Part shown: positions 47,597 to 57,298 of the stretch, one piece after another
How the letters are laid out: each line of letters starts with the position of its first letter
Numbering within the stretch: position 1 is the stretch's first letter
Assembly: GCA_963742235.1 (NCBI GenBank)
Contig: CAVULT010000030.1
Location: forward strand, 149,655-213,654
DNA length: 64,000 nt
Source: Candidatus Aminicenantes bacterium
GTDB lineage: Bacteria; Acidobacteriota; Aminicenantia; Aminicenantales; Saccharicenantaceae
Reading direction: 5' to 3'
Translations under genes and position numbers: made by a program
Notes under the pieces: generated by a model
Seen by the model: only the letters and a program-made list of their open reading frames with translations
What the model was told of the DNA's origin: nothing
Databases searched by the model: none

Positions 47597-48060
47597 CCCG
47601 GAAGGCCGGCGGGCCGGGCACCGTCGTCTCGGTCAACACCAGCGTCAAGAAGGGGCAGATCAAGCGCCCGGTCGCGTCCGTCGAGATCCGCGCCGGCCGG
47701 GGCATCGAGGGCGACGCCCACCAGGATTTCGGCCGTCGGCAGGTCTCGCTCCTGGCCGTCGAGGACATCGACGCGCAGAAGGAGAGGCTCGGCGGCGGCC
47801 AGGCCGTCGCGCTCGGCCCGGGCGCCTTCGCCGAGAACCTGACCACGCGCGGCATCGACCTCGGCGCGCTCGTCATCGGCGACGAGCTTGTCGTCGCGGG
47901 CGTCGTGCGGCTGCGGGTCAGCCAGATCGGCAAGGAATGCCATACCAAGTGCGCGGTCTATCACCTCACCGGCGACTGCATCATGCCGGCCCGCGGCATC
48001 TTCTGCGAGGTCCTGAGCGGCGGCACGGTCCGCCCCGGAGACAGCCTTGAAAAGCGGTAA
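47593..48060 (+). CDS. MOSC domain protein
   Basis: The ATG overlaps the moaC stop (ATGA). The translation reads [17 protein letters not shown]...GIEGDAH...QVSLLA...GENLTT. Confidence 0.75.
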
Positions 48061-49019
48061 GGTCCTGCGCATCTCGGTCACGGACCGCTGCGATCTGCGC
48101 TGCATCTACTGCATGCCCGAGGCCGGCGTCGCTCTCGTCCCGATGGCGGACCTGCTGAGCTACGAGGAGATCGCCGCGATCGCCCGCGCGGCCATGGCCG
48201 CGGGGGTCCGGCGCTTCCGGCTGACGGGCGGCGAGCCGCTGGCCCGGCGGGGCGTCGCGTCCCTCGTCCGGCTGTTGGCCGCGCTCGGGCCCGACGACCT
48301 GGCCCTGACGACCAACGGCCTGCTCCTGGCCGATTTCGCGGCCGACCTCAAAGCGGCGGGGCTCATGCGGGTGACCGTCAGCCTGGACACGCTTCGCCCC
48401 GGCCGCTTCGCGGCCATCACCCGGCGGACGGGACTCGACCGCATCCTGGCCGGGATCGAGGCCGCCCGGGCGGCCGGCCTCGCGCCGGTCAAGGTCAACA
48501 TGGTCGTCATCCGCGGCGTCAACGACGACGAGATCGCCGATTTCGTCCGCTTCGCCGTGAAGGAAGGCGTCGAGCTGCGCTTCATCGAGCTCATGCCGAC
48601 GAGCGGGCTCACGCCCGAATGCAAAGAGCTCGGAGCCTGGCGGCCGGCGCTCTTCGTCAAAGGCGAAGAGGTGCGGGCCCGGATCGCCCGAGGCGTTCGG
48701 CCCCTTGGAGCGGCTCCCGGAAGATGGCGGCGTCGCGGACATGTATCTCCTCGACCGCCGGACGCGCCTCGGTTTCATCGCGCCCGTCTCCGAGCCCTTC
48801 TGTCAGGGCTGCGGACGGCTGCGGCTGGGCCCGGACGGCCGGCTGAGGATCTGCCTCTTCGACCGGGCCGGGATCGATCTGCGGGAGTTCCTGCGCGAAG
48901 TCAAGGCCGGTCCGGCCGAGATCGAGGCCGTCATCAAGGCGGCCTTCGCGGCCAAGACGACGTGGGAGCGGGGCGCGATCGAGAGCCTGTCGAACGACAT
49001 GTTCAGGATCGGAGGGTGA
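48047..49019 (+). pseudogene. moaA: GTP 3',8-cyclase MoaA (radical SAM); apparent +1 frameshift
   Basis: The N-terminus LRISVTDRCDLRCIYCMP...RLTGGEPL...LTTNG...VKVNMVVIRGVNDDE is in the ORF 48047 frame. The C-terminus EAFGPLERLPEDGG...FCQGCGRLRLGPDGRLRICLF is in ORF 48705-49019. The switch is at ATCGCCCGAGG, near 48687-48689. Confidence 0.85.
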
Positions 49020-49021
49020 CG

Positions 49022-49633
49022 ATGAAGGTCGGGATCCTCACGGTGAGCGACAAAGGGGCCAGGGGCGAGCGAGAGGACCGGAGCGGGCCGGCCATCCGCG
49101 AGATGATCGAGGCCGCGGGCGGCGAGGTCGTGCGGGCGAAGATCGTGCCGGACGAGCCGGAAGACATCCGGGCCGTGCTCATCGACTGGTCGAGCGAGGG
49201 CTTGGACCTCGTCCTGACAACCGGGGGAACGGGGTTCAGCCCGCGCGACTGGACGCCCGAAGCGACGAAAAGCGTCATCGATCGTGAGGCCCCGGGCCTG
49301 ACGGAGGCCATGCGGCGGGCCGGGGCCGAGAAGACGCCGACGGCCATGCTCAGCCGGGCCGCCGCCGGCATCCGGAGATCGACGCTGATCGTCAATCTTC
49401 CCGGGAGCGAGAAAGCCGTGCGGGAGGGCCTGGAGGTCCTCCTGCCCGCCCTGCCGCACGCCGTCGACATCCTCAGGGGCACGGCGTCGGAGTGCGCCGG
49501 GCGCCGTCACGATGAGCCGGATCACTCATCGAGCGGGCCGGGCTTGAAGGAACGGCCCTTCTTCTTCTCGCCGAGGCGATGCTTGTCGGCGAGCATCTTA
49601 TCCTTGGCCCGCTTGGAGCGCTTCCGCTTCTGA
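49022..49633 (+). CDS. moaB: MoaB/MogA-family molybdenum cofactor biosynthesis protein
   Basis: The translation reads MKVGILTVSDKGARGEREDRSG...LVLTTGGTGFSPRD...MLSRAAAGIR...LIVNLPGS. The roughly 35 residues after HAVDILRG look non-homologous and overlap the convergent arfB-like gene, so the true stop may be earlier. Confidence 0.8.
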   Translation: MKVGILTVSDKGARGEREDRSGPAIREMIEAAGGEVVRAKIVPDEPEDIRAVLIDWSSEGLDLVLTTGGTGFSPRDWTPEATKSVIDREAPGLTEAMRRAGAEKTPTAMLSRAAAGIRRSTLIVNLPGSEKAVREGLEVLLPALPHAVDILRGTASECAGRRHDEPDHSSSGPGLKERPFFFSPRRCLSASILSLARLERFRF

Positions 49634-49950
49634 CGGCGGATCTTGGCGATCCTCTGTTCCTCCTGGCTCTCTTTCCCGAGGACGGCCGATTCGATCTTGT
49701 CGGTCAGGATGCGGCGGGCCAGGTACCTGTTGAGGGACTGGAAGCGCTCCTGCTGGCACTTGACCTCAGTGCCCGTGGGCAGGTGCTTGAGGTAGACGCA
49801 GGTCGCGACCTTGTTGACGTTCTGGCCGCCGTGGCCTCCCGAGCGGATGAACTTCTCGACGATGTCCTCTTCGCGGATGCCGAGCCGCTCCATCCTGTCC
49901 GCCAGGGCCTGCTCTTTCTCGGGGCTGACGCCGAATGTGGGCATATTCAC
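49522..49950 (-). CDS. arfB: ArfB-like peptidyl-tRNA hydrolase (RF-1 domain with GGQ and a basic tail)
   Basis: SGGHGGQNVNKV GGQ motif, about 140 aa, with a Lys/Arg-rich C-terminal tail (RRQKRKRSKRAKDK). GTG start at 49950 or ATG at 49944. Confidence 0.75.
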   Translation of the reverse strand: MNMPTFGVSPEKEQALADRMERLGIREEDIVEKFIRSGGHGGQNVNKVATCVYLKHLPTGTEVKCQQERFQSLNRYLARRILTDKIESAVLGKESQEEQRIAKIRRQKRKRSKRAKDKMLADKHRLGEKKKGRSFKPGPLDE

Positions 49951-50121: not shown

Positions 50122-51892
50122 ATGAAGCCGACACCCAAAACTCTCGTCGCTATAGCCGCATTGATCCTCATCGCGCTCTCAACGGCCGGCCAGACGCCGC
50201 CGGCCGCCCCCCAAAACACCGCCTTCGGGGCAGGCCCCGCGTCCCCAGGGTGTCCCCTTCCAGCCGCCGCCCGTCGCCCCGGTCCCGCCTCCGCCCCCGG
50301 CTCCCGCCTCGGGCCCCAAGACGACGGCCGAAGCGACCGATTACGCCGCGACGTCGACCTATGCCGACGTTCTCGCTTTCGTCCGCGACCTCCAGAGGCT
50401 TTCGCCCCTGGTCCGCGTCGAGACGATGGCCACCTCGACCGAGGGACGCGCCATCCCGCTCGTCGTCATCGGCCGGCCCGCCCCCGAGGATCCGCTCGCC
50501 GTGCGTTACGACAAGCGCATCGTCCTCTACTTCCAGGCCAACATCCACGCCGGCGAGGTCGAGGGCAAGGAAGCGACGCTGATGCTCGCCCGCGACATCG
50601 TCCTCGATCCCAAGCTGCCCTATCTCGACAAGATCGTCCTGCTCATCGCGCCCATCTTCAACGCCGACGGCAACGACAAGATGGACCCGGCGAACCGCAG
50701 GGGCCAGGTCGGCCCGGAAAAGGGCTCCGGCCTGCGCCAGAACGGCCAGAACCTCGACCTCAACCGGGACGCGATGAAGCTCGAGAGTCCGGAGATGCGG
50801 GGCCTGGTCCGCAACGTCCTCGAACGCTGGGACCCTCTTCTCCTCGTGGATTGCCACACGACCGACGGCTCCTTCCACCAGGAGCCGGTGACCTACTCCT
50901 GGCCGCTCTGCCCGAACGGCGATCCGGCTATCCTGAAATATGCCCGCGATAAGATGCTCCCGGCGGTCGACGCCGCCCTCGAGAAGAAATACGGCACCCT
51001 GTCCGTCCCCTACGGCGACCCCATGGATTTCAAGGACATGGAAAAGGGCTGGCAGACCTTCGGACACCAGCCTCGCTACATGACCAATTACGTCGGCCTG
51101 CGCGACCGGCTCTCCGTCCTCATCGAGAACTACAACTATGCCGACTTCAGGACCCGCGTCGCCGGCAACTACCATATGCTCCAGGCTCTCCTCGACTATT
51201 GCTGGGCCAACGCCGCGGAGCTCCAGCGCCTCGTCGCCGACGCAGACGCCCGGACAGTCCAGAGCGGCCTCGCGCCCGGTGAAGCCGACACTTTCGGTCT
51301 GGACATCGACGTCCAGCCCCTCCCGGGCAAGGTCACGATCCTCGGCTACGAGATGGAGGCGCCGACCGCGCCCGCCGAGGGCGGAGGCGGTCCCTTCCCG
51401 AGGATGAGACCGACCGACCGCAAGAAAGCCTACGTCATGCCCTATTACGCCGACTTCGTGGCCAAGCGCACGGTCCGTCTCCCCTACGCCTATCTCATCC
51501 CGCTCGCGGCGACGGACGTCCCCGACAAGCTCCGCCAGCACGGCATCTCCGTCGAGCGCTTGACCGCGCCCGCGACTCTCGAAACGGAGGCCTTCCGCCT
51601 CAAGGAGGTCAAGGGCGCCGAGCGCCTCTACCAGGGGCACCGGACGAACTCGGTCAAGGGCGAGTATGCCCTCGAGAAGCGGGAATTCCCCCAGGGGACG
51701 TGGCTCGTCCGGACGGCCCAGCCCCTGGGCCGGCTGGCCGCCTACCTCCTCGAGCCGGAGAGCGACGACGGCCTCCTCGTCTGGAATTATTTCGACCGGG
51801 ACATCGTCAGCCAGTGGGGCCGCGGGGCGCAAACCTACCCCGTCTTCAAGCTCTATACCCCTCAGAACCTGGCCTCCGAGGTCGTTGACTAG
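50122..51892 (+). pseudogene. Secreted M14 zinc carboxypeptidase; apparent +1 frameshift after the signal peptide
   Basis: The signal peptide MKPTPKTLVAIAALILIALSTAGQ is in the frame of ORF 50122. The mature enzyme (KTTAEATDYAAT...YFQANIHAGEVEGKEA...NADGND...NLDLNRD...VDCHTTDG) is one frame over and open from 50165. The only plausible junction is the C6A4 run at 50207-50216. Confidence 0.8.
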
Positions 51893-51903
51893 CCGCGGAG
51901 AAG

Positions 51904-52725
51904 CTACTTCTTTTTCTTTTTGGCCGAGACCAGGTACTTGCCGCAGTTCTCGCAGACGTAGATGTCGTTGGAGTCTTCCATGGCCGAATACATCTGCGTC
52001 GAGATGTTGATGTTGCAGCTCTGGCAGACGCCGTCGATGGCGTCGGCCACGGCGAAACCGTAGCGCTCCATCAGCCGGTCGAAGCGGGACAAGACATCGC
52101 GATCGAACTCTTCCCGGATCATGGCCGCGTGCTTCTGGAGCTCCTTCTGCTGCTCCTTGGTGGCTTTCTTCTTCCGCAGCTCGATCTCCTGGAGCTTCTT
52201 GAGCATCCGGGCCCGGCTGACGATCTTCTCCTCGTGGACGAACTTGAATTCGATCCCGGCGAGGATGTCGTAGAGCTCCGCCTTGTCCTTGGCCGCCTGG
52301 ATCCGGCCGCGGTTCTCGGGCCGGATGAGGAAGCGGGCCAGGCCGGCGAAGAGGTGATTGAAGAGGCCGGGCAGGGTCGGGTTCCAGACGACGAGGATGA
52401 TCAGGTGGACTTTCTGGCCGTCGTGGGCGTCGAAGTCGATGCCCTTCTCCGACCGGCCGACGGCGACGGCGATCTCGCCTTCGGCGTCGACGCGGGCGTG
52501 GGGCAGGGCGACGCCGCAGCCGATGGCCGTGGAGACGAGGTTCTCGCGGTCGATGATGCGGGTCAGGGTCAGCTTCTTGTTGTCGATGAGCTTCTGTTTG
52601 GCCAGCAGGTCCAGGAGCTCTTCGATGGCCTCGACCTTATCCTTGCTCTTGAGGTCAAAAATGACCTGGTGGGGTTTGAGGTAATCGGAAAAGCGGGTGA
52701 TATGGGGGGCGGGTTTGTTCTCCAT
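51904..52725 (-). CDS. PTS EIIA(Ntr/Fru)-type domain fused to a coiled-coil plus C4 zinc-ribbon (DUF164/CT398-HP0958-like) domain
   Basis: The N-terminal 150 aa read FDLKSKDKVEAIEELL...STAIGCGVALPHARV...LIILVV, an EIIA_2 pattern with the phospho-His context. A Lys/Glu-rich coiled coil follows, then CQSCNINIS...YVCENCGKYLV. Confidence 0.7.
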   Translation of the reverse strand: MENKPAPHITRFSDYLKPHQVIFDLKSKDKVEAIEELLDLLAKQKLIDNKKLTLTRIIDRENLVSTAIGCGVALPHARVDAEGEIAVAVGRSEKGIDFDAHDGQKVHLIILVVWNPTLPGLFNHLFAGLARFLIRPENRGRIQAAKDKAELYDILAGIEFKFVHEEKIVSRARMLKKLQEIELRKKKATKEQQKELQKHAAMIREEFDRDVLSRFDRLMERYGFAVADAIDGVCQSCNINISTQMYSAMEDSNDIYVCENCGKYLVSAKKKKK

Positions 52726-52803
52726 TACTCAAAAGTTTAGCACACCCGGCGTGAAAAGCCAATGCCCGGTTTCGGGGCGCGCTTTGGCCCGGCCCCGAGC
52801 GTC

Positions 52804-54432
52804 TTATTTGACCGACGAACGCGCGAACGAGCTCGTCGGCAGGAACTGCGGCAGCGCCTCGCGCTCCTGGAGGAGCGAGATGATGCCCCGGGCCCAATCG
52901 ATGATCTGCAGCGCGCCGCGGAGGTCCCAGTCGGGCTGGATCTCGTCGGTCACCTTGTGGTACTTCGTCGCCCGGTAGTCCGCGAACTTCCGCTGGATCA
53001 GGCCCTTGTCCGGCCCCCGGGACACGACGCCCTGGCTGAGCCAGACGCCGGGGATGCCGGCCCGGGCGAAGCTGATCTGGTCGGAACGGTAGAAGAAGCC
53101 GAGCTCCCCGTTCCGCTCGGGGGTGTAGCGCAGGCCCAGCTTTTCGGCGGCTTCCCGGCAGACGGCGTCGAGGTCCGATTGCCGGGCCCCGACGGCGAAG
53201 ACGTCCTCGGTCTCGCCCCAGACGTTGGTCATCTCGAAGTTGATGTCGGCGACCGCGGTCTCCTTGGCGAAGGGCAGGTGGCGGGCGAAATAGTCGGACC
53301 CGAGGACGAGCTGCTCCTCGGCGGTCACGGCGACGAAGCAGAGATCGACCTTGAGCTGTTTGGGGCGTTGGGCGTAATAGCCGGCGGTGGCCAGAAGGGC
53401 GGCCGAGGCGGCGCAGTTGTCCAGGGCCCCGTTGTAGATCTGGTCCCCTTGAAGCGTCTCGTCTTTTCCGAAGTGATCGTAATGGGCCGAGAGAACGATC
53501 GTCCGCATCTTCGCGGCCGGGTGCTTGGCCTTGACGATGCCGGCCACGTTGACGCCGTCGACGGTCCGGTAGACGCGGTGCTGGCGGACCGTCGCCTTCA
53601 GGCCGAGCGGCACGGGCGCGAAGTCGGGCGTCTCGGCCTTTTCCCGCAGGGCCTTGCGGTCGAGCTTGGCCGCGGCCAGGATGCGGTCGGCCGTTTCGCC
53701 GGCAAGCCAGCCCTCGAACAGGAGCCGGGGGTTGCGGTCCGGGAGGAAGAAGCTCTCGTTGGCCCACGAGGCCCTCAGGACGTCCCAGCCGTAGGCCGCG
53801 CCTTTCGTATCGTGGATGATGAGGACGCCCGCCGCGCCGAGCTCCTCGGCCTTCTCGTACTTGTAGGGCCAGCGACCGTAATAGGTCATGTCCTCGCCGT
53901 CAAAGACGCCTCCGGGGAAATTCCCCGGCTCGTTCACTTCGACGAGCAGGATCTTGCCCGTGAGGTCGAGGCCCTTGACGTCGTCCCAATTCCGCTCGGG
54001 CGCCTGCACGAGGTAGCCGCAGTAGACGATCTCTCCTGCCGCTTCGGGCGGCGCATCCTCGCGCTCGGACCTGACGACGAACTCGTCCCAGAGAACCGGG
54101 GCGAGCGCGACGCCCGGCCCGGCGACCTCGAGCGACGCGGCCGGGTCCGGCCGCGAGCCTCTGAGCGGGAAGGTCTGCCTGTAGCTCGTTCCGAAAGCCG
54201 GCTCGAGACCCATCGTCCGGAAATAGTCCTCGTGATAGCGGGCGGCGAGCTCGATGCCCTTCGTCCCCACCGCCCGGCCCTCGAGCTGGTCGCTCGAGAG
54301 ATAACGGATGTGGGCCGCGATCTCGTCGACCGTGACGGGTTCCATCCGGCTCGACGAGCCTTGGCAGGACCACAGGGACGCGATCAGGGCGATCATGCCG
54401 AAAAGCCCGGTCGCGCGTTTTCGTCGGAACAT
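52804..54432 (-). CDS. M28 family peptidase lipoprotein with a PA domain
   Basis: Starts at MFRRKRATGLFGMIALIASLWSC (lipobox). SAHYDHFG, NGALDNCAASAALL, AVTAEEQLVLGS and NFEM are M28 motifs. The ORF-track extension to 54972 is Arg/Gly-rich and non-coding-like. Confidence 0.85.
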   Translation of the reverse strand: MFRRKRATGLFGMIALIASLWSCQGSSSRMEPVTVDEIAAHIRYLSSDQLEGRAVGTKGIELAARYHEDYFRTMGLEPAFGTSYRQTFPLRGSRPDPAASLEVAGPGVALAPVLWDEFVVRSEREDAPPEAAGEIVYCGYLVQAPERNWDDVKGLDLTGKILLVEVNEPGNFPGGVFDGEDMTYYGRWPYKYEKAEELGAAGVLIIHDTKGAAYGWDVLRASWANESFFLPDRNPRLLFEGWLAGETADRILAAAKLDRKALREKAETPDFAPVPLGLKATVRQHRVYRTVDGVNVAGIVKAKHPAAKMRTIVLSAHYDHFGKDETLQGDQIYNGALDNCAASAALLATAGYYAQRPKQLKVDLCFVAVTAEEQLVLGSDYFARHLPFAKETAVADINFEMTNVWGETEDVFAVGARQSDLDAVCREAAEKLGLRYTPERNGELGFFYRSDQISFARAGIPGVWLSQGVVSRGPDKGLIQRKFADYRATKYHKVTDEIQPDWDLRGALQIIDWARGIISLLQEREALPQFLPTSSFARSSVK

Positions 54433-54514
54433 GGCGTCCTCCGTGATGCGCTCCAAGCGCGGGGACGATGATAGCACAGAACGCGGCGAAAGGCCCGGCG
54501 GCGGGTCCTTCCAT

Positions 54515-54543
54515 TTGACCGCGCCGGGCCTTTGTCCTAACAT
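54515..54543 (+). promoter_or_regulatory. Candidate promoter (TTGACC-N17-TAACAT)
   Basis: Hexamers at 54515-20 and 54538-43, 40 nt upstream of the ATG at 54583, which has an AAAGGAG RBS. Confidence 0.35.
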
Positions 54544-54582
54544 GGGCTCTCGCGCCGCACGCGCCGGCGAAAGGAGTCCACC

Positions 54583-55197
54583 ATGTCGAGATGCCATAAG
54601 CCCGTCGCGGTCCTCGCCGCGGCCGCCGTCATTGCCGTCCTCGTCCCCGTCTCTCTCGCGGGCCAGACCGCGGAGCCCAGGGCGGAGCTCCCGGCGCTGA
54701 TCACGTCCTGCGGCCAGAGCAACGCCCCGACGACGATCAAGATCGTCATGCAGCGGCTGAAGATGGCCTACGACATCGATCCCCTGGCGACCCCGGAGAT
54801 GCTCCAGGCCAAGGCCAAGGCCGGGACCCCCTACAAGACTCTGATCATCACTATGGGCGCCAGCCTCAAGGGCATGGGCGCGGCCGGGATCCAGATCGAG
54901 GACGAGATCGGTCGAGCCGAGGCCCTCATCGCCGAGGCCCGCAAGGAAGGCATCAAGATCATCGGCGCCCACATCGAGGGACTGAAGCGCCGCTCGCAGG
55001 GCGCGGCGGCCGGCGACACGACCGACGAGCAGACGATCGACGCCGTGGGCCCGAACTCGGACATCCTTCTCGTCTACAAGGAAGGGAACTCCGACGGCCG
55101 CTTCACGGTCATCTCCAGATCCAAGAAGATCCCGCTCATCGAGTTCGAGAAGACCAAGGACCTGATCCCGACCTTGGAGAAGCTGTTCTCGAAATAG
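54583..55197 (+). CDS. Secreted hypothetical protein (Rossmann-like alternation)
   Basis: AAGGAG RBS and a signal peptide. It shows an alternating beta-alpha pattern (TTIKIVM, TLIITMGASLKG, IKIIGAHIEG). No family recognised. Confidence 0.6.
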   Translation: MSRCHKPVAVLAAAAVIAVLVPVSLAGQTAEPRAELPALITSCGQSNAPTTIKIVMQRLKMAYDIDPLATPEMLQAKAKAGTPYKTLIITMGASLKGMGAAGIQIEDEIGRAEALIAEARKEGIKIIGAHIEGLKRRSQGAAAGDTTDEQTIDAVGPNSDILLVYKEGNSDGRFTVISRSKKIPLIEFEKTKDLIPTLEKLFSK

Positions 55198-55198
55198 C

Positions 55199-57298
55199 CT
55201 ACTTTTTCTTGATCGTGACGAGTCCCAGCTTCTCCTGGATGCCGACCCACTTTTCGACTTCGAGGAGGTCGAGGGGCTCGTATTCGGCCGAGGCCGCGTC
55301 CCGGATGTCGAGGACCGACCGCTCCCCGTCGATGAAGTTCCGGAGCTCCCACTCGGCCATCATGATCGACGGCGGCGCCTGGTAGTTCAGCTTCCGGACC
55401 TCGTCGCGGAGCGACCACATGCTCATCAGGCCGCCCATCTTTTCGGTCCGGACGGGAACGAGGCCGGCCAGCCGGATTTCGTCCTTCGTCGGCGCGGCCT
55501 TTTCGACTTTGAGGCCGAGCGCCCGGCAGCGCGAAGCATAGAGGTCGTCGAGACCCTTGAGCTGAGCCGCGCGGACGGCGTCGAGGCCGGCCAGGCACCC
55601 CGCCAGAGCGGCCTCCGCCCCGGCGTCCCGGCCGATAAAATACCGGACCGAAGCCAGGGCCTTCTTCTCCCGGACGAAGCCCTGGGCGACGATCACCCGG
55701 GCCTCCCGGACCGCGGCCTGGACCGATTTCGCGTCGGCGGCCAGAAGAAGCCGCTCCGCCCGGCCCTTGTCCTCCCCCAGCCGCGCGCCGGCTCGCGCCG
55801 AGATCTCGGCCGTCATCCGCCCGGCCTCGGCCGGGCCCGCGTTGGCCAGGAATTCGGCGGCCGCCGCGGAGATCGTCACCACCCGCTTGAACTGGGTCGC
55901 GTCGGACTTGTCCGGCGTGTCGCCGCTCGAGTGGTACCACTGGTCGGGCCAGACGATCATCAGAACGGCCGGGATGCGGATGCTCCCGTCGACGAAGACG
56001 TCGTGGTCGCTGCCGCCGGAGTAGCGCTCGATCAGGAAATAGAACGGATCGCGCGAGCCCGTCGGGGCCAGGACGCCGCCCGTCCGCCAGCTCGCCTCCT
56101 GGGCGTCCCGCTGGGAATCGCCCATCCACTCGGTGTAGGACGCCATGACGTCGTTGAGATAGGTCGGCAGGGACCAGGGCGTCTGGTTGAGGCGGAAGTA
56201 GCTCTGGTTCTTGATCAGTCCCTCGCCGACCATGTCCAGATTGATGTCGGCGAAGATCCTCTTCCTGATGTCGGGATTCAGCCGGAGATAGGCTTCGGTT
56301 CCGGAGATCTCGGGCACGAAGAGAAAGCGCACGGACCTCTTGAGAGGCGGGATCTTGCCCTCGGAGAGGAGCTTCTTCAGGACCCGGGCCGTCTCCAGGA
56401 TGGCCGTGCACCCCGAGGCGTTGTCGTTGGCGCCCTGCTTGGCCCAGCCCTCATAGAGGTGGGCGGTCAAGACCAGCTCCTCGTCCGGGAGCTCGGTCCC
56501 CCTGATCAGGCCGACGGTCAGCTGGTCCTTGGGGTCCTGGACGAGCCCGGTCTTGGCCACCGCCCTGACGACGATCTTGCGGCCCCGTTCGAGGAGGTTC
56601 CGGAGATCCTGGCCCTGCCGCTCGGAGACCATGAAGCCGAAGGTCGCCCGGTCCTTCGGGGCGGGCCGCAGGCCGCTCCAGCCGACCTCGTCACGGTCGA
56701 ACTCGGGATGGCTCGACGACCAGCCGATGAGCCCCGCGGCGCCGTACTTCAGGACCCCGATGCGCCGGGCCATCTCGGGCGGGCCGTTGACCAGCAGGAT
56801 CTTGCCTTCGATGTCCTTGTCCTTATAGAACTCCTCCTGGTTTCCCGGCCCGACGTAGACGAGCTCGGCCGTCGTGTCCGTCGTCTCGCTCCCCGCGCAG
56901 AGGCAGGCCGGGACCTCGTCGAGGTCGGTGATCTTGCGCAGCTCCGGCTCGACCATCCAGAGCTCGGCCGATTCGGCGTCCCAGGCCGTCGGGTTATCCA
57001 CGGGCAGGTCGACGGTCAGGGCCTCGTCGAGGCCGTACTCACGGAGCTTCTCGAGGATGAACGCGGATTCGAAGTAGCCGGTCCGGTACTCCTCGGGCTT
57101 GCGGTTCCTGTTGACGCCCGCGAGGTGGATCTCGTTCTGCAGGGCCAGCTCTCCGGAGGCCTCGGCGATGATGGCCCGGAGGATCTCGGGGGCGCTCGGC
57201 GCGGGCCGGGGCGGCGTTTCCTGAGCGGTGACGGCGCCGGCCAGCGTCAGACCGGCCGCGAGCAGGATCAGGGCCGTGGAGCGGGGGATGCGGATCAT
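55199..57298 (-). CDS. Secreted M28-type aminopeptidase with a PA domain and DUF4910-like C-terminus
   Basis: Signal peptide, then LTAHLYEGWAKQGANDNASGCTAILE, FLFVPEISG, NLDMVG and GGSDH. The C-terminal NFIDGERSVLDIRDAASAEY tail matches the gene at 2-1339. Confidence 0.85.
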   Translation of the reverse strand: MIRIPRSTALILLAAGLTLAGAVTAQETPPRPAPSAPEILRAIIAEASGELALQNEIHLAGVNRNRKPEEYRTGYFESAFILEKLREYGLDEALTVDLPVDNPTAWDAESAELWMVEPELRKITDLDEVPACLCAGSETTDTTAELVYVGPGNQEEFYKDKDIEGKILLVNGPPEMARRIGVLKYGAAGLIGWSSSHPEFDRDEVGWSGLRPAPKDRATFGFMVSERQGQDLRNLLERGRKIVVRAVAKTGLVQDPKDQLTVGLIRGTELPDEELVLTAHLYEGWAKQGANDNASGCTAILETARVLKKLLSEGKIPPLKRSVRFLFVPEISGTEAYLRLNPDIRKRIFADINLDMVGEGLIKNQSYFRLNQTPWSLPTYLNDVMASYTEWMGDSQRDAQEASWRTGGVLAPTGSRDPFYFLIERYSGGSDHDVFVDGSIRIPAVLMIVWPDQWYHSSGDTPDKSDATQFKRVVTISAAAAEFLANAGPAEAGRMTAEISARAGARLGEDKGRAERLLLAADAKSVQAAVREARVIVAQGFVREKKALASVRYFIGRDAGAEAALAGCLAGLDAVRAAQLKGLDDLYASRCRALGLKVEKAAPTKDEIRLAGLVPVRTEKMGGLMSMWSLRDEVRKLNYQAPPSIMMAEWELRNFIDGERSVLDIRDAASAEYEPLDLLEVEKWVGIQEKLGLVTIKKK

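What the first reader, a model, noticed from the sequence alone, without database searches (positions are those of the whole stretch)
51904..52725. A PTS EIIA(Ntr)-type domain is fused to a CT398/HP0958-like coiled-coil zinc-ribbon
Seen: the N-terminal roughly 150 aa have the EIIA_2 pattern, including the ...GCGVALPHARV... phosphorylatable-His context. A Lys/Glu-rich coiled coil follows (RMLKKLQEIELRKKKATKEQQKELQKH). The protein ends with a CxxC...CxxC ribbon (CQSCNINIS...VCENCGKYLV).

Established knowledge: EIIA-Ntr (PtsN) is genetically and functionally linked to sigma-54 regulons. The zinc-ribbon coiled-coil proteins CT398 (Chlamydia) and HP0958 (Helicobacter) bind RpoN.

Inference: a single polypeptide combining both modules could couple PTS-Ntr phosphorylation state directly to sigma-54 or to an RNA target. 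I am not aware of a described example.
Basis: partly seen in the sequence, partly recalled or inferred. Interest (0 to 1): 0.6.

Follow-up and report, generated by a model that had tools for sequence, protein, structure and literature searches.

The report
PtsN-like regulator fused to mini zinc-ribbon
This gene encodes a nitrogen-PTS-type phosphorylation sensor (EIIA-Ntr) joined to a shortened version of the zinc-ribbon proteins that associate with RNA polymerase and sigma-54. The same two parts occur as neighbouring genes in other phyla, so they almost certainly work together, but nobody has studied the pair.

Summary
Window 51904-52725 (-) encodes a 273-aa protein with a PTS_EIIA_2 domain (99.8 bits; closest to PtsN by sequence and fold) and a Zn_ribbon_9/DUF164 ribbon (33.5 bits, cut-off 29.1). 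His76 and all four Cys are invariant in homologues down to 27% identity.

The long CT398-type coiled-coil hairpin, the part reported to bind RpoN, is missing. Only the hairpin base, the connecting helix and the ribbon remain (a "mini-DUF164").

The gene is an extra paralogue. The genome also holds a canonical lptB-rpoN-ptsN-hprK-rapZ-HPr-EI cluster and a canonical full-length DUF164 gene next to dnaG-rpoD. It has no EIIC permease.

- The fusion is a near-universal gene of one order of Aminicenantia (63 of 65 genomes) and also occurs in Hydrogenedentota and Spirochaetota.
- In Gemmatimonadota, Eisenbacteria and Calditrichota the two modules are separate, abutting genes. This is a Rosetta-stone relationship.
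- I found no paper on it; databases call it "PTS sugar transporter subunit IIA".

Most likely it is a regulator controlled by PTS-Ntr phosphorylation. Its ribbon would dock where DUF164 proteins dock (RNA polymerase, or RNA). This mechanism is inferred, not shown.

I rate it a new variant of known kinds, of moderate to high interest.

The parts
51904..52725 (-). Whole gene: 273-aa EIIA-Ntr-type domain fused to a mini-DUF164 zinc ribbon (P0001)
   Evidence: ORF list and translation. Pfam finds two domains. The 120 best of 667 homologues listed are all 267-318 aa, and all but two carry both precomputed Pfam domains.
52258..52683 (-). PTS_EIIA_2 domain (aa 15-156), PtsN-like
   Evidence: Pfam 99.8 bits. 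The best PDB sequence matches are PtsN 4gqx, 1a6j and 3urr, E about 1e-9. Foldseek on the AF2 model gives PtsN 3urr/1a6j with TM (target) 0.89 and rmsd 1.6-1.7 A, ahead of IIA-Mtl.
52498..52500 (-). Codon of His76, the predicted phosphorylation site
   Evidence: Aligned with the PH motif of PtsN structures. Invariant in alignments A1, A2 and A3. The plus strand reads gtg, which is CAC on the minus strand.
52051..52257 (-). Linker (aa 157-170, low confidence) and three short helices (171-185, 190-204, 209-222): the base of a DUF164 hairpin plus the connecting helix
   Evidence: AF2 secondary structure; pLDDT is 53 for the block 161-170 and about 90 for the helices. Aligns to CT398 residues 148-233 and HP0958 residues 141-233. 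L175 and L178 are conserved across both subfamilies.
51925..52050 (-). C4 zinc ribbon (aa 226-267; CxxC at 52015-52026 and 51943-51954)
   Evidence: Zn_ribbon_9 at 33.5 bits, above the 29.1 cut-off. All four Cys are invariant. Foldseek matches HP0958 3na7 at E 7.8e-4, 79 columns, rmsd 2.4 A.
51907..51924 (-). Lys-rich C-terminal tail (SAKKKKK)
   Evidence: Sequence. Saccharicenans-type relatives extend it to about 30 Lys-rich residues. The C-terminal module has net charge +2 to +13 in most fused forms.
52734..52762 (-). Putative own sigma-70-type promoter: TTGGCT, 17 nt, (TGc)TAAACT, ending 8 nt before the ATG (possibly a leaderless mRNA)
   Evidence: Read from the sequence. The same boxes and spacing are conserved in relative L009. 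It falls below the consensus scanner's threshold. This is an inference only.

Best explanation
**What it is.** The gene encodes a dedicated regulatory paralogue of PtsN (EIIA-Ntr). Its output module is a 'mini-DUF164': the base of the CT398/HP0958-type helical hairpin, the connecting helix and the C4 zinc ribbon, without the long distal coiled coil.

**Shown**
- Both domains are present and under strong purifying selection.
- The genome has EI, HPr, a short HprK, canonical ptsN and rpoN, but no EIIC, so its PTS is purely regulatory.
- The same two modules occur either fused (Aminicenantales, Hydrogenedentota, Spirochaetota) or as two abutting genes (Gemmatimonadota, Eisenbacteria, Calditrichota).
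- They coexist with a canonical full-length DUF164 protein.

**Inferred mechanism**
- His76 is reversibly phosphorylated by HPr/NPr~P, according to the PEP/pyruvate and nitrogen/carbon state sensed by EI.
- The zinc-ribbon module docks the protein at the site used by canonical DUF164 proteins. A 2026 AlphaFold3 study predicts this site to be the beta' jaw/shelf of RNA polymerase. For HP0958 the ribbon's reported partner is an RNA.
- The phosphorylation state of the attached (or, in split systems, bound) EIIA domain switches that docking or what it does there. One possibility is competition with the canonical DUF164 protein, whose long hairpin reaches the sigma-binding region.
- The result would be that metabolic state is reported directly to the transcription machinery.
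For: - **Domains and fold.**
- **Conservation.** The phospho-His, the active-site Arg-Glu pair 16 residues upstream and all four Cys are invariant across roughly 20 clusters at 50% identity.
- **Phosphorelay partners.** rpoN, ptsN, hprK, rapZ, HPr and EI lie together on contig C6. HPr and rpoN are present in 14 of 14 fusion- or split-bearing genomes of other phyla.
- **No sugar PTS.** PTS_EIIC is found in 0 of 21 genomes of the lineage.
- **Core-gene status.** There is a strong match in 63 of 65 genomes of the order. Other orders give only weak hits; the 14 best of these, checked directly, are canonical DUF164 without EIIA.
- **Rosetta stone.** Nine loci in three phyla carry a roughly 150-aa EIIA gene followed within 1-15 nt by a 110-119-aa gene. 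The three of these scanned against Pfam score Zn_ribbon_9 at 35-36 bits.
- **Stand-alone mini protein.** It folds confidently (pLDDT 86.8, pTM 0.79). Its only significant PDB matches are HP0958, CT398 and MSMEG_4306.
- **Single origin for two lineages.** Fused EIIAs of Aminicenantes and Hydrogenedentota form one clade (support 95/94), separate from the other EIIA-only homologues sampled; the genome's own rpoN-linked ptsN falls outside that whole set.
- **Coexistence.** A canonical DUF164 is also present in the own genome and in 12 of 14 other carriers.
- **RNA polymerase link of DUF164.** AF3 models in bioRxiv 10.64898/2026.07.15.738315. Conserved dnaG-rpoD-DUF164 synteny is reported in PMC3372290 and is seen here on contig C2.
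- **Same logic elsewhere in this genome.** A KdpD-sensor::EIIA fusion shows that this lineage tethers EIIA paralogues to partner proteins.
Against: - The target of the ribbon is unknown, and the molecular function of COG1579/DUF164 is itself unsettled (PMC8469502).
- RNA polymerase docking of DUF164 rests on AlphaFold3 predictions in a preprint.
- Gene neighbourhoods give no transcription-related partner. They show peptidases in Aminicenantes, and shikimate genes plus a cNMP-binding protein in Hydrogenedentota.
- The C-terminal module is basic in fused forms but acidic in the Gemmatimonadota split forms. A common nucleic-acid-binding role is therefore doubtful.
- The AF2 inter-domain geometry is uncertain (pTM 0.58).
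Confidence: 0.45

Rival explanations
1. Sigma-54-specific chaperone or modulator. The protein binds RpoN as HP0958/CT398 do, and couples PTS-Ntr state directly to sigma-54 stability or activity.
For: - HP0958 stabilises RpoN, and its ribbon cysteines are required for that (PMC3372290).
- CT398 binds RpoN holoenzyme (PMC5947703).
- rpoN is present in the own genome and in 14 of 14 other carriers.
- ptsN is classically linked to rpoN.
Against: - The coiled-coil hairpin reported as the RpoN-binding part of CT398 is absent: no CT398_CC hit, and only CT398 residues 148-233 are matched.
- The gene is never adjacent to rpoN.
- No sigma-54 promoter lies upstream.
- DUF164 proteins exist in sigma-54-free Actinobacteria.
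- rpoN may simply be universal in these phyla, so 14 of 14 is weak evidence.
Confidence: 0.15
2. Post-transcriptional regulator. The ribbon, with the Lys-rich tail, binds specific mRNA or sRNA, as reported for HP0958 and flaA mRNA. EIIA phosphorylation switches RNA binding.
For: - The HP0958 ribbon binds flaA mRNA (cited in PMC5947703).
- COG1579 is annotated as a 'predicted nucleic acid-binding protein'.
- The C-terminal module has net charge +2 to +13 in most fused forms, and Aminicenantes members carry poly-Lys tails.
Against: - The split mini proteins of Gemmatimonadota are acidic, at -4 to -6.
- No conserved RNA element or RNA-related neighbour was seen.
- The RNA-binding evidence concerns a single homologue.
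Confidence: 0.2
3. The EIIA domain is the effector, acting on some other target as free PtsN does (K+ transport, kinases). The helical and zinc-ribbon part serves only for oligomerisation, localisation or zinc/redox sensing.
For: - PtsN has many protein targets (own knowledge).
- The same genome tethers another EIIA to a KdpD sensor domain.
- In several Gemmatimonadota genomes the split EIIA is the only stand-alone PtsN, and its close orthologues in Gemmatimonadaceae lack the ribbon gene.
Against: - The ribbon is specifically a DUF164-type ribbon with the conserved flanking helix, retained from 27% identity upward and in the split form.
- A generic oligomerisation tag would not need that degree of conservation.
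Confidence: 0.12
4. Ordinary sugar-PTS enzyme IIA (the database annotation 'PTS sugar transporter subunit IIA', 'mannitol/fructose-specific IIA').
For: Names given by NCBI and JGI. The best NCBIfam hit is the fruA IIA domain, at 70.7 bits, below its 103.5 cut-off.
Against: - No PTS_EIIC in 21 of 21 genomes of the lineage, while the controls give hits.
- The closest sequences and folds are PtsN.
- The protein is fused to a zinc ribbon, not to IIB or IIC.
Confidence: 0.01

Closest known systems
PtsN / EIIA-Ntr (E. coli PtsN 1a6j; Burkholderia 3urr, 4gqx; Neisseria 2a0j)
   Same: - Same fold (TM 0.85-0.90, rmsd 1.6-1.8 A).
- Same phospho-His motif and the upstream Arg-Glu pair.
- It sits in a genome whose PTS is purely regulatory (EI, HPr, HprK, no EIIC).
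- It presumably reports PEP/nitrogen state by phosphorylation-dependent protein contacts.
   Different: - It carries a 115-aa C-terminal helical and zinc-ribbon module.
- It scores far below the PtsN equivalog cut-offs (59 vs 138.7 bits; 51 vs 221).
- It is not in the rpoN operon, where a separate canonical 157-aa ptsN sits.
- Together with the Hydrogenedentota fused proteins it forms its own clade.
DUF164 / COG1579 zinc-ribbon proteins: HP0958 (FlgZ, 3na7), CT398 (CdsZ, 4ilo), MSMEG_4306 (5y06)
   Same: - C-terminal C4 ribbon with the family signature F-X18-CxxC-X20-CxxC.
- The preceding connecting helix and the base of the hairpin.
- These are the only significant PDB neighbours of the C-terminal module, and especially of the stand-alone mini protein.
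   Different: - It lacks about 140 residues of the coiled-coil hairpin (CT398_CC), the region implicated in RpoN binding and predicted to reach the sigma site.
- An EIIA domain (or a separate EIIA gene) takes its place.
- It coexists with a canonical full-length DUF164 in the same genomes.
NIF3::DUF164 fusion of Wolinella succinogenes WS2117 (PMC3372290)
   Same: It is another case in which a DUF164 ribbon protein is fused to the product of a gene that is a neighbour in other species. It has been used as a Rosetta-stone argument for a functional link.
   Different: The partner is NIF3/DUF34, not EIIA, and the long coiled coil is retained.
KdpD-sensor::EIIA fusion in the same genome (contig C5), and the known PtsN-KdpD interaction in E. 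coli
   Same: An EIIA-Ntr-type paralogue is covalently tethered to the protein module it presumably regulates.
   Different: The partner is different. The E. coli interaction is recalled from my own knowledge and was not tested here.

Membership tests
PTS EIIA type 2 (Pfam PF00359) | Domain profile match above the gathering score | tested here: met
   99.8 bits against a cut-off of 27, residues 15-156, profile positions 2-142 of 144.
PtsN / EIIA-Ntr | Phosphorylatable His in the G-x-G-[IV]-A-[IFL]-P-H motif, with the Arg 16 residues upstream | tested here: met
   H76 aligns with the PH of 1a6j and 4gqx. R60, E61 and H76 are invariant. The residue numbering of E. coli His73/Arg57 is from my own knowledge.
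PtsN / EIIA-Ntr | Fold closest to solved EIIA-Ntr structures | tested here: met
   Foldseek ranks 1-6 are all PtsN, with TM (target) 0.85-0.90.
PtsN / EIIA-Ntr | Passes the NCBIfam equivalog models (TIGR01419, NF008145) | tested here: not met
   59.3 bits against 138.7, and 50.8 against 221. It is a divergent paralogue, not the orthologue.
PtsN / EIIA-Ntr | Encoded in the rpoN operon (typical, not universal) | tested here: not met
   The gene is on contig C30 between peptidase genes. The canonical ptsN lies next to rpoN on contig C6.
PtsN / EIIA-Ntr | Phosphorylated by NPr/HPr~P without a sugar permease partner | not testable with these tools
   HPr and EI are present and EIIC is absent in 21 of 21 genomes. 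Phosphotransfer itself needs biochemistry.
DUF164 / COG1579 (HP0958, CT398/CdsZ) | Zn_ribbon_9 (PF02591) above the gathering score, at the C-terminus | tested here: met
   33.5 bits against 29.1, covering the full 33-position profile at residues 233-265.
DUF164 / COG1579 (HP0958, CT398/CdsZ) | Signature Y/F-X18-23-CXXC-X18-26-CXXC (PMC3372290) | tested here: met
   F215-X18-C234xxC237-X20-C258xxC261. The Cys are invariant.
DUF164 / COG1579 (HP0958, CT398/CdsZ) | Long N-terminal antiparallel coiled-coil hairpin (CT398_CC, PF24481; about 170 aa) | tested here: not met
   No PF24481 hit at E<=10, whereas the genome's canonical paralogue scores 35.9 bits. Only CT398 residues 148-233 and HP0958 residues 141-233 align.
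DUF164 / COG1579 (HP0958, CT398/CdsZ) | Passes the CdsZ equivalog model NF047363 | tested here: not met
   21.5 bits against a cut-off of 275.
DUF164 / COG1579 (HP0958, CT398/CdsZ) | Structural similarity of the ribbon plus connecting helix | tested here: met
   - Fusion model against 3na7: E 7.8e-4, 79 columns, rmsd 2.4 A.
- Split mini protein against 3na7, 4ilo and 5y06: E 1.2e-4 to 1.2e-2, the only significant hits.
DUF164 / COG1579 (HP0958, CT398/CdsZ) | Binds RpoN, RNA polymerase or RNA | not testable with these tools
   No multimer prediction or binding assay was available.

The most novel reading that the evidence does not exclude
The EIIA-Ntr / mini-DUF164 pair, fused or as a two-gene operon, is an unrecognised output branch of the nitrogen PTS that plugs directly into RNA polymerase.

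- It would dock at the site used by DUF164 proteins.
- There it would compete with, or modulate, the canonical long-hairpin DUF164 that reaches the sigma/sigma-54 binding region.
- This would supply the long-sought physical link between PTS-Ntr and transcription, and a rationale for the ancient ptsN-rpoN association.
- It would also predict that free PtsN and free DUF164 proteins interact in ordinary bacteria.
Probability: 0.2. Interest if true: 0.8.

Novelty: new variant of a known kind. Interest (0 to 1): 0.58.

Why it matters
**Two open problems meet here.**
- PtsN has been encoded next to rpoN in many bacteria for decades, yet no direct mechanistic link to transcription has been agreed.
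- DUF164/COG1579 is a very widespread family, essential in some species, whose molecular role is still called 'mysterious'.

**What the finding adds.** A conserved fusion, together with a split-operon counterpart in other phyla, is among the strongest genomic predictors of a physical and functional partnership between the two modules.

**What it makes testable.**
- Whether the EIIA domain is phosphorylated on His76.
- Whether the EIIA and ribbon modules bind each other.
- Whether the ribbon module binds RNA polymerase or RNA.

**Annotation.** Hundreds of database entries are now called 'PTS sugar transporter subunit IIA' in organisms that have no PTS permease; this finding corrects that label.

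**Ecology.** The carriers (Aminicenantes, Hydrogenedentota, Gemmatimonadota) are abundant and mostly uncultured. A near-universal regulator of this kind is relevant to how they sense nutrient state.

Tried and rejected
- **Sugar-PTS reading: rejected.** No PTS_EIIC in 21 genomes of the lineage.
- **Sigma-54 promoter upstream: none.** The nine matches with two mismatches in the whole window are fewer than chance expects, and none lies near the gene.
- **Consensus promoter/terminator scan: nothing.** The scanner found no promoter. A weaker TTGGCT-17-TAAACT pair was read by eye and is conserved in one relative only. The third, more distant upstream region did not align.
- **Gene-neighbourhood inference: uninformative for mechanism.** Synteny with M28 and M14 peptidases and an RF-1-domain gene is conserved in Aminicenantes. 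Hydrogenedentota show a small ORF and a cNMP-binding gene as neighbours. rpoN or PTS genes are never adjacent.
- **The search for related loci with the broad alignment A1 failed**, because it had no conserved stretch. I repeated it with the closer alignment A4.
- **The mini module as a canonical DUF164 with the hairpin tip deleted: only a weak hint.** The first helix matches the N-terminus of canonical proteins at i-E 0.014-0.03 in 4 of 15 cases and is not significant for the own paralogue.
- **Weak hits in other Aminicenantia orders as possible divergent fusions: rejected.** The 14 checked, and the weak hit in G065 of the own order, are canonical DUF164 with no EIIA.
- **Earlier notes of this scan:** four first-reader notes describe the same fusion in other genomes, all unchecked. 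I did not use them as evidence.
- **Complex prediction** with RpoN, RNA polymerase or HPr was not possible with the single-chain predictor.
Full report
**1. The observation**

Window 51904-52725 on the minus strand is an intact 273-aa ORF.

- Pfam finds PTS_EIIA_2 at residues 15-156 (E 1.7e-28, 99.8 bits, cut-off 27).
- Pfam finds Zn_ribbon_9 (PF02591, the former zf-RING_7/DUF164 ribbon) at residues 233-265 over its whole 33-position profile (33.5 bits, cut-off 29.1).
- NCBIfam gives only sub-threshold hits. The EIIA matches are the fruA IIA domain (70.7 bits vs 103.5) and PtsN (59.3 vs 138.7). The ribbon match is weak: CdsZ/CT398, residues 141-264, E 1.3e-4.
- Against PDB sequences, the best matches are four PtsN structures (E 1e-9 to 6e-7), followed by CT398 4ilo (E 4e-4, residues 141-265 against 107-233).
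- His76 in GCGVALPHARV aligns with the phospho-His motif of E. coli PtsN.
- CQSC (234-237) and CENC (258-261) fit the published DUF164 signature as F215-X18-CxxC-X20-CxxC (motif from PMC3372290).

**2. Structure**

An AlphaFold2 model built on 36 homologues has mean pLDDT 85.8 and pTM 0.58.

- It shows an EIIA fold at residues 8-162 and a low-confidence linker at 164-168.
- Three short helices follow (171-185, 190-204, 209-222), then a ribbon at 226-267.
- Foldseek against the PDB ranks six PtsN chains first (TM on target 0.85-0.90, rmsd 1.6-1.8 A), ahead of IIA-Mtl. It recovers HP0958 (3na7) for 79 C-terminal columns (E 7.8e-4, rmsd 2.4 A).

The C-terminal 115 residues alone align to CT398 residues 148-233 and HP0958 residues 141-233. 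That corresponds to the last turns of the descending hairpin helix, the connecting helix and the ribbon.

The protein gives no hit to the CT398_CC hairpin domain (PF24481). The genome's canonical DUF164 protein (contig C2 38837-39580, 247 aa) scores for both CT398_CC and Zn_ribbon_9. The two proteins share 26% identity over residues 209-265 only.

The 'coiled coil' of the finding is thus a stub. About 140 residues of the hairpin are replaced by the EIIA domain. I call what remains a mini-DUF164.

**3. Genomic setting**

The window is contig C30 of a 3.0-Mb assembly. Names of close homologues place it in Candidatus Aminicenantes.

- Contig C6 carries a textbook regulatory PTS cluster on one strand: lptB, rpoN, ptsN (157 aa), a short hprK, rapZ, an EIIA-Man-like gene, HPr and EI.
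- No PTS_EIIC permease is detectable in this genome or in 20 relatives, while the control genomes give hits. The PTS is therefore purely regulatory, and the database name 'PTS sugar transporter subunit IIA' is misleading.
- The gene under study is an additional EIIA paralogue.
- A third EIIA_2 domain is fused to the C-terminus of a KdpD N-terminal sensor domain next to kdpB/kdpC.
- Locally, the gene follows an M28 peptidase gene on the same strand (78-nt gap) and converges on an M14 peptidase gene. This synteny is kept in relatives at 69-87% identity but suggests no function.
- No sigma-54 promoter lies upstream.
- A weak sigma-70-like pair, TTGGCT-17-(TGc)TAAACT, ends 8 nt before the ATG. It is conserved in one relative, which hints at a separate, possibly leaderless, transcript.

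**4. Distribution**

- A search of 5.8 billion proteins gave 667 hits. The best 120 are 267-318 aa, and all but two carry both precomputed Pfam domains.
- An exhaustive search of representatives at 50% identity found about 20 full-length clusters down to 27% identity.
- In their alignment, R60, E61, G71, A73, P75, H76, D102, L178 and the four Cys are invariant.
- Among 151 genomes of the class, the C-terminal module finds a strong match (E<=1e-36) in 63 of 65 genomes of the window's order and in none of 86 genomes of other orders.
- I checked the 14 best weak hits in other orders, and the weak hit in G065 of the own order, directly. All are canonical full-length DUF164 proteins without EIIA.
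- Most genomes of the order keep both the fusion and the canonical protein.
- A second subfamily, with a linker about 20 residues longer, is common in Hydrogenedentota, and a third occurs in Spirochaetota.

**5. The split form**

The species-genome scan returned full-length tblastn matches in nine loci: seven Gemmatimonadota or Gemmatimonadota-like loci, one Candidatus Eisenbacteria and one Calditrichaceae. Frame-by-frame reading shows two genes in each.

- The first gene is a roughly 150-aa EIIA ending in a stop codon.
- After 1-15 nt, often in another frame, comes a 110-119-aa gene. It begins MHPQLExLLExQDL and ends in CYGC...CENCGRF.
- Three of these small proteins were scanned against Pfam and score Zn_ribbon_9 at 35-36 bits, above the cut-off.
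- Their first residue aligns with about residue 170 of the fusion, exactly at its low-confidence linker.
- An HMM of the C-terminal module finds such a gene only in these loci and in the fused ones. It finds none next to the 54 other EIIA-only loci.
- An AF2 model of the Longimicrobiaceae mini protein is confident (pLDDT 86.8, pTM 0.79). It shows a short helical hairpin (3-23 and 37-53), a connecting helix and a ribbon. Its only significant PDB neighbours are HP0958, CT398 and MSMEG_4306.

The EIIA tree adds the following.

- Fused EIIAs of Aminicenantes and Hydrogenedentota form one clade (support 95/94). That fusion probably arose once and spread.
- The Spirochaetota fusions sit elsewhere and may be independent.
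- The split EIIAs of Gemmatimonadota nest among ribbon-less EIIAs of Gemmatimonadaceae. In several of those genomes the split EIIA is the only stand-alone PtsN.

Fused in some lineages and adjacent in others is the classical Rosetta-stone pattern. It is the strongest evidence here that the EIIA and the mini-DUF164 act on each other.

**6. Co-occurrence**

All 14 fusion- or split-bearing genomes examined from other phyla encode rpoN and HPr. Twelve of the 14 also encode a canonical CT398_CC protein elsewhere. This is compatible with a phosphorelay input and with interplay between the mini and canonical DUF164. It is weak evidence, because these genes may be universal in those phyla.

**7. What is known**

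- HP0958 (FlgZ) stabilises RpoN and needs its ribbon cysteines. Its ribbon is reported to bind flaA mRNA.
- CT398 binds RpoN holoenzyme. According to Barta et al. 2015, as cited in PMC5947703, only its coiled coil contacts RpoN.
- DUF164 proteins also exist in sigma-54-free Actinobacteria.
- DUF164 genes are frequently encoded beside dnaG and rpoD (PMC3372290). That is also where the canonical paralogue sits here.
- A 2026 preprint predicts with AlphaFold3 that the ribbon of ML1638 and CT398 anchors at the beta' jaw/shelf of RNA polymerase, while the hairpin tip reaches the sigma site and the sigma-54 core-binding domain (bioRxiv 10.64898/2026.07.15.738315).
- A 2011 survey of 349 DUF164 proteins found only three with another architecture and named a NIF3 fusion. 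It mentions no EIIA fusion.
- Full-text searches combining DUF164/COG1579/zinc ribbon/FlgZ/CdsZ with EIIA/PtsN found no description of this architecture.

**8. Mechanism**

*Shown.* The protein is a conserved two-module protein with an intact phospho-acceptor site and an intact zinc site. It sits in a genome with a regulatory PTS, alongside a canonical PtsN and a canonical DUF164, and it has a split-gene counterpart elsewhere.

*Inferred.*
- HPr~P phosphorylates His76.
- The mini-DUF164 docks at the target of DUF164 ribbons: RNA polymerase on present predictions, or alternatively RNA.
- The phosphorylation state of EIIA governs that docking or its consequence. It may do so by competing with the long-hairpin paralogue, which can reach sigma, whereas the mini form cannot.

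I give this 0.45. Narrower or alternative readings are:
- a sigma-54-specific chaperone (0.15), weakened by the missing hairpin and the lack of any rpoN linkage;
- an RNA-binding post-transcriptional switch (0.20), supported by the basic tails in Aminicenantes but not by the acidic split proteins;
- EIIA as the effector with the ribbon as an accessory (0.12);
- a sugar-PTS enzyme (about 0.01), rejected.

**9. Verdict**

The finding is real. It is more interesting than a one-off fusion, because it is a core gene of an order, spans several phyla and has a split form. It combines two known domains rather than forming a new kind of system, its sigma-54 connection is unproven, and no function has been demonstrated. 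I rate it a new variant of a known kind, interest 0.58.

Noticed in passing
own genome G000 contig C5:45859-47538 (+), outside the window: A 559-aa protein joins the KdpD N-terminal sensor domain (PF02702, 296 bits) to a C-terminal PTS_EIIA_2 domain (77 bits). It lies directly after kdpB/kdpC. It is a second EIIA fusion in this genome, and it mirrors the PtsN-KdpD interaction known from E. coli (own knowledge).
   Followed up: partly
own genome G000 contig C6:10865-18054 (-): A complete regulatory PTS-Ntr cluster: lptB, rpoN, ptsN, a short hprK, rapZ, an EIIA-Man-like gene, HPr and EI. No EIIC permease was found in 21 genomes of the lineage.
   Followed up: yes
own genome G000 contig C2:36057-39580 (+): The canonical DUF164 protein (CT398_CC + Zn_ribbon_9, 247 aa) lies directly downstream of dnaG and rpoD. 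Pereira et al. 2011 reported the same arrangement for several phyla.
   Followed up: partly
window 48047-49480 (+): moaA appears split between two reading frames. Radical_SAM lies in the frame of 48047, and Mob_synth_C positions 44-123 lie in the frame of 48705. A MoCF_biosynth (moaB/mog) domain follows. This is a frameshift, an assembly error or a pseudogene.
   Followed up: partly
L011:5629-7350, L013:4653-6392, L015:4646-6305 (Hydrogenedentota-type loci): A conserved trio: a 61-67-aa ORF with no Pfam family (MRVQTFIGKxSIEGLxQMD...), then the EIIA::zinc-ribbon fusion, then a stand-alone cNMP-binding protein of 142-158 aa. Shikimate-pathway genes precede the trio.
   Followed up: partly
P0089, P0102, P0116 (Saccharicenans-type homologues, 301-304 aa): These carry a C-terminal Lys-rich tail of about 30 residues after the ribbon (net charge of the module +10 to +13). 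The window protein ends in KKKKK. The split mini proteins of Gemmatimonadota are acidic.
   Followed up: partly
genomes G151-G156 and G164 (Hydrogenedentota; G164 is labelled Nitrospirales): Three to seven PTS_EIIA_2 copies per genome. Several lie inside open frames of 200-700 aa, which suggests further EIIA fusions to unknown partners.
   Followed up: no
window 50426-57298: A cluster rich in peptidase genes surrounds the gene: an M14 carboxypeptidase, two M28 peptidases and a DUF6305 protein. An RF-1-domain (ArfB-like) gene lies at 49522-49950. The arrangement is syntenic in relatives.
   Followed up: partly
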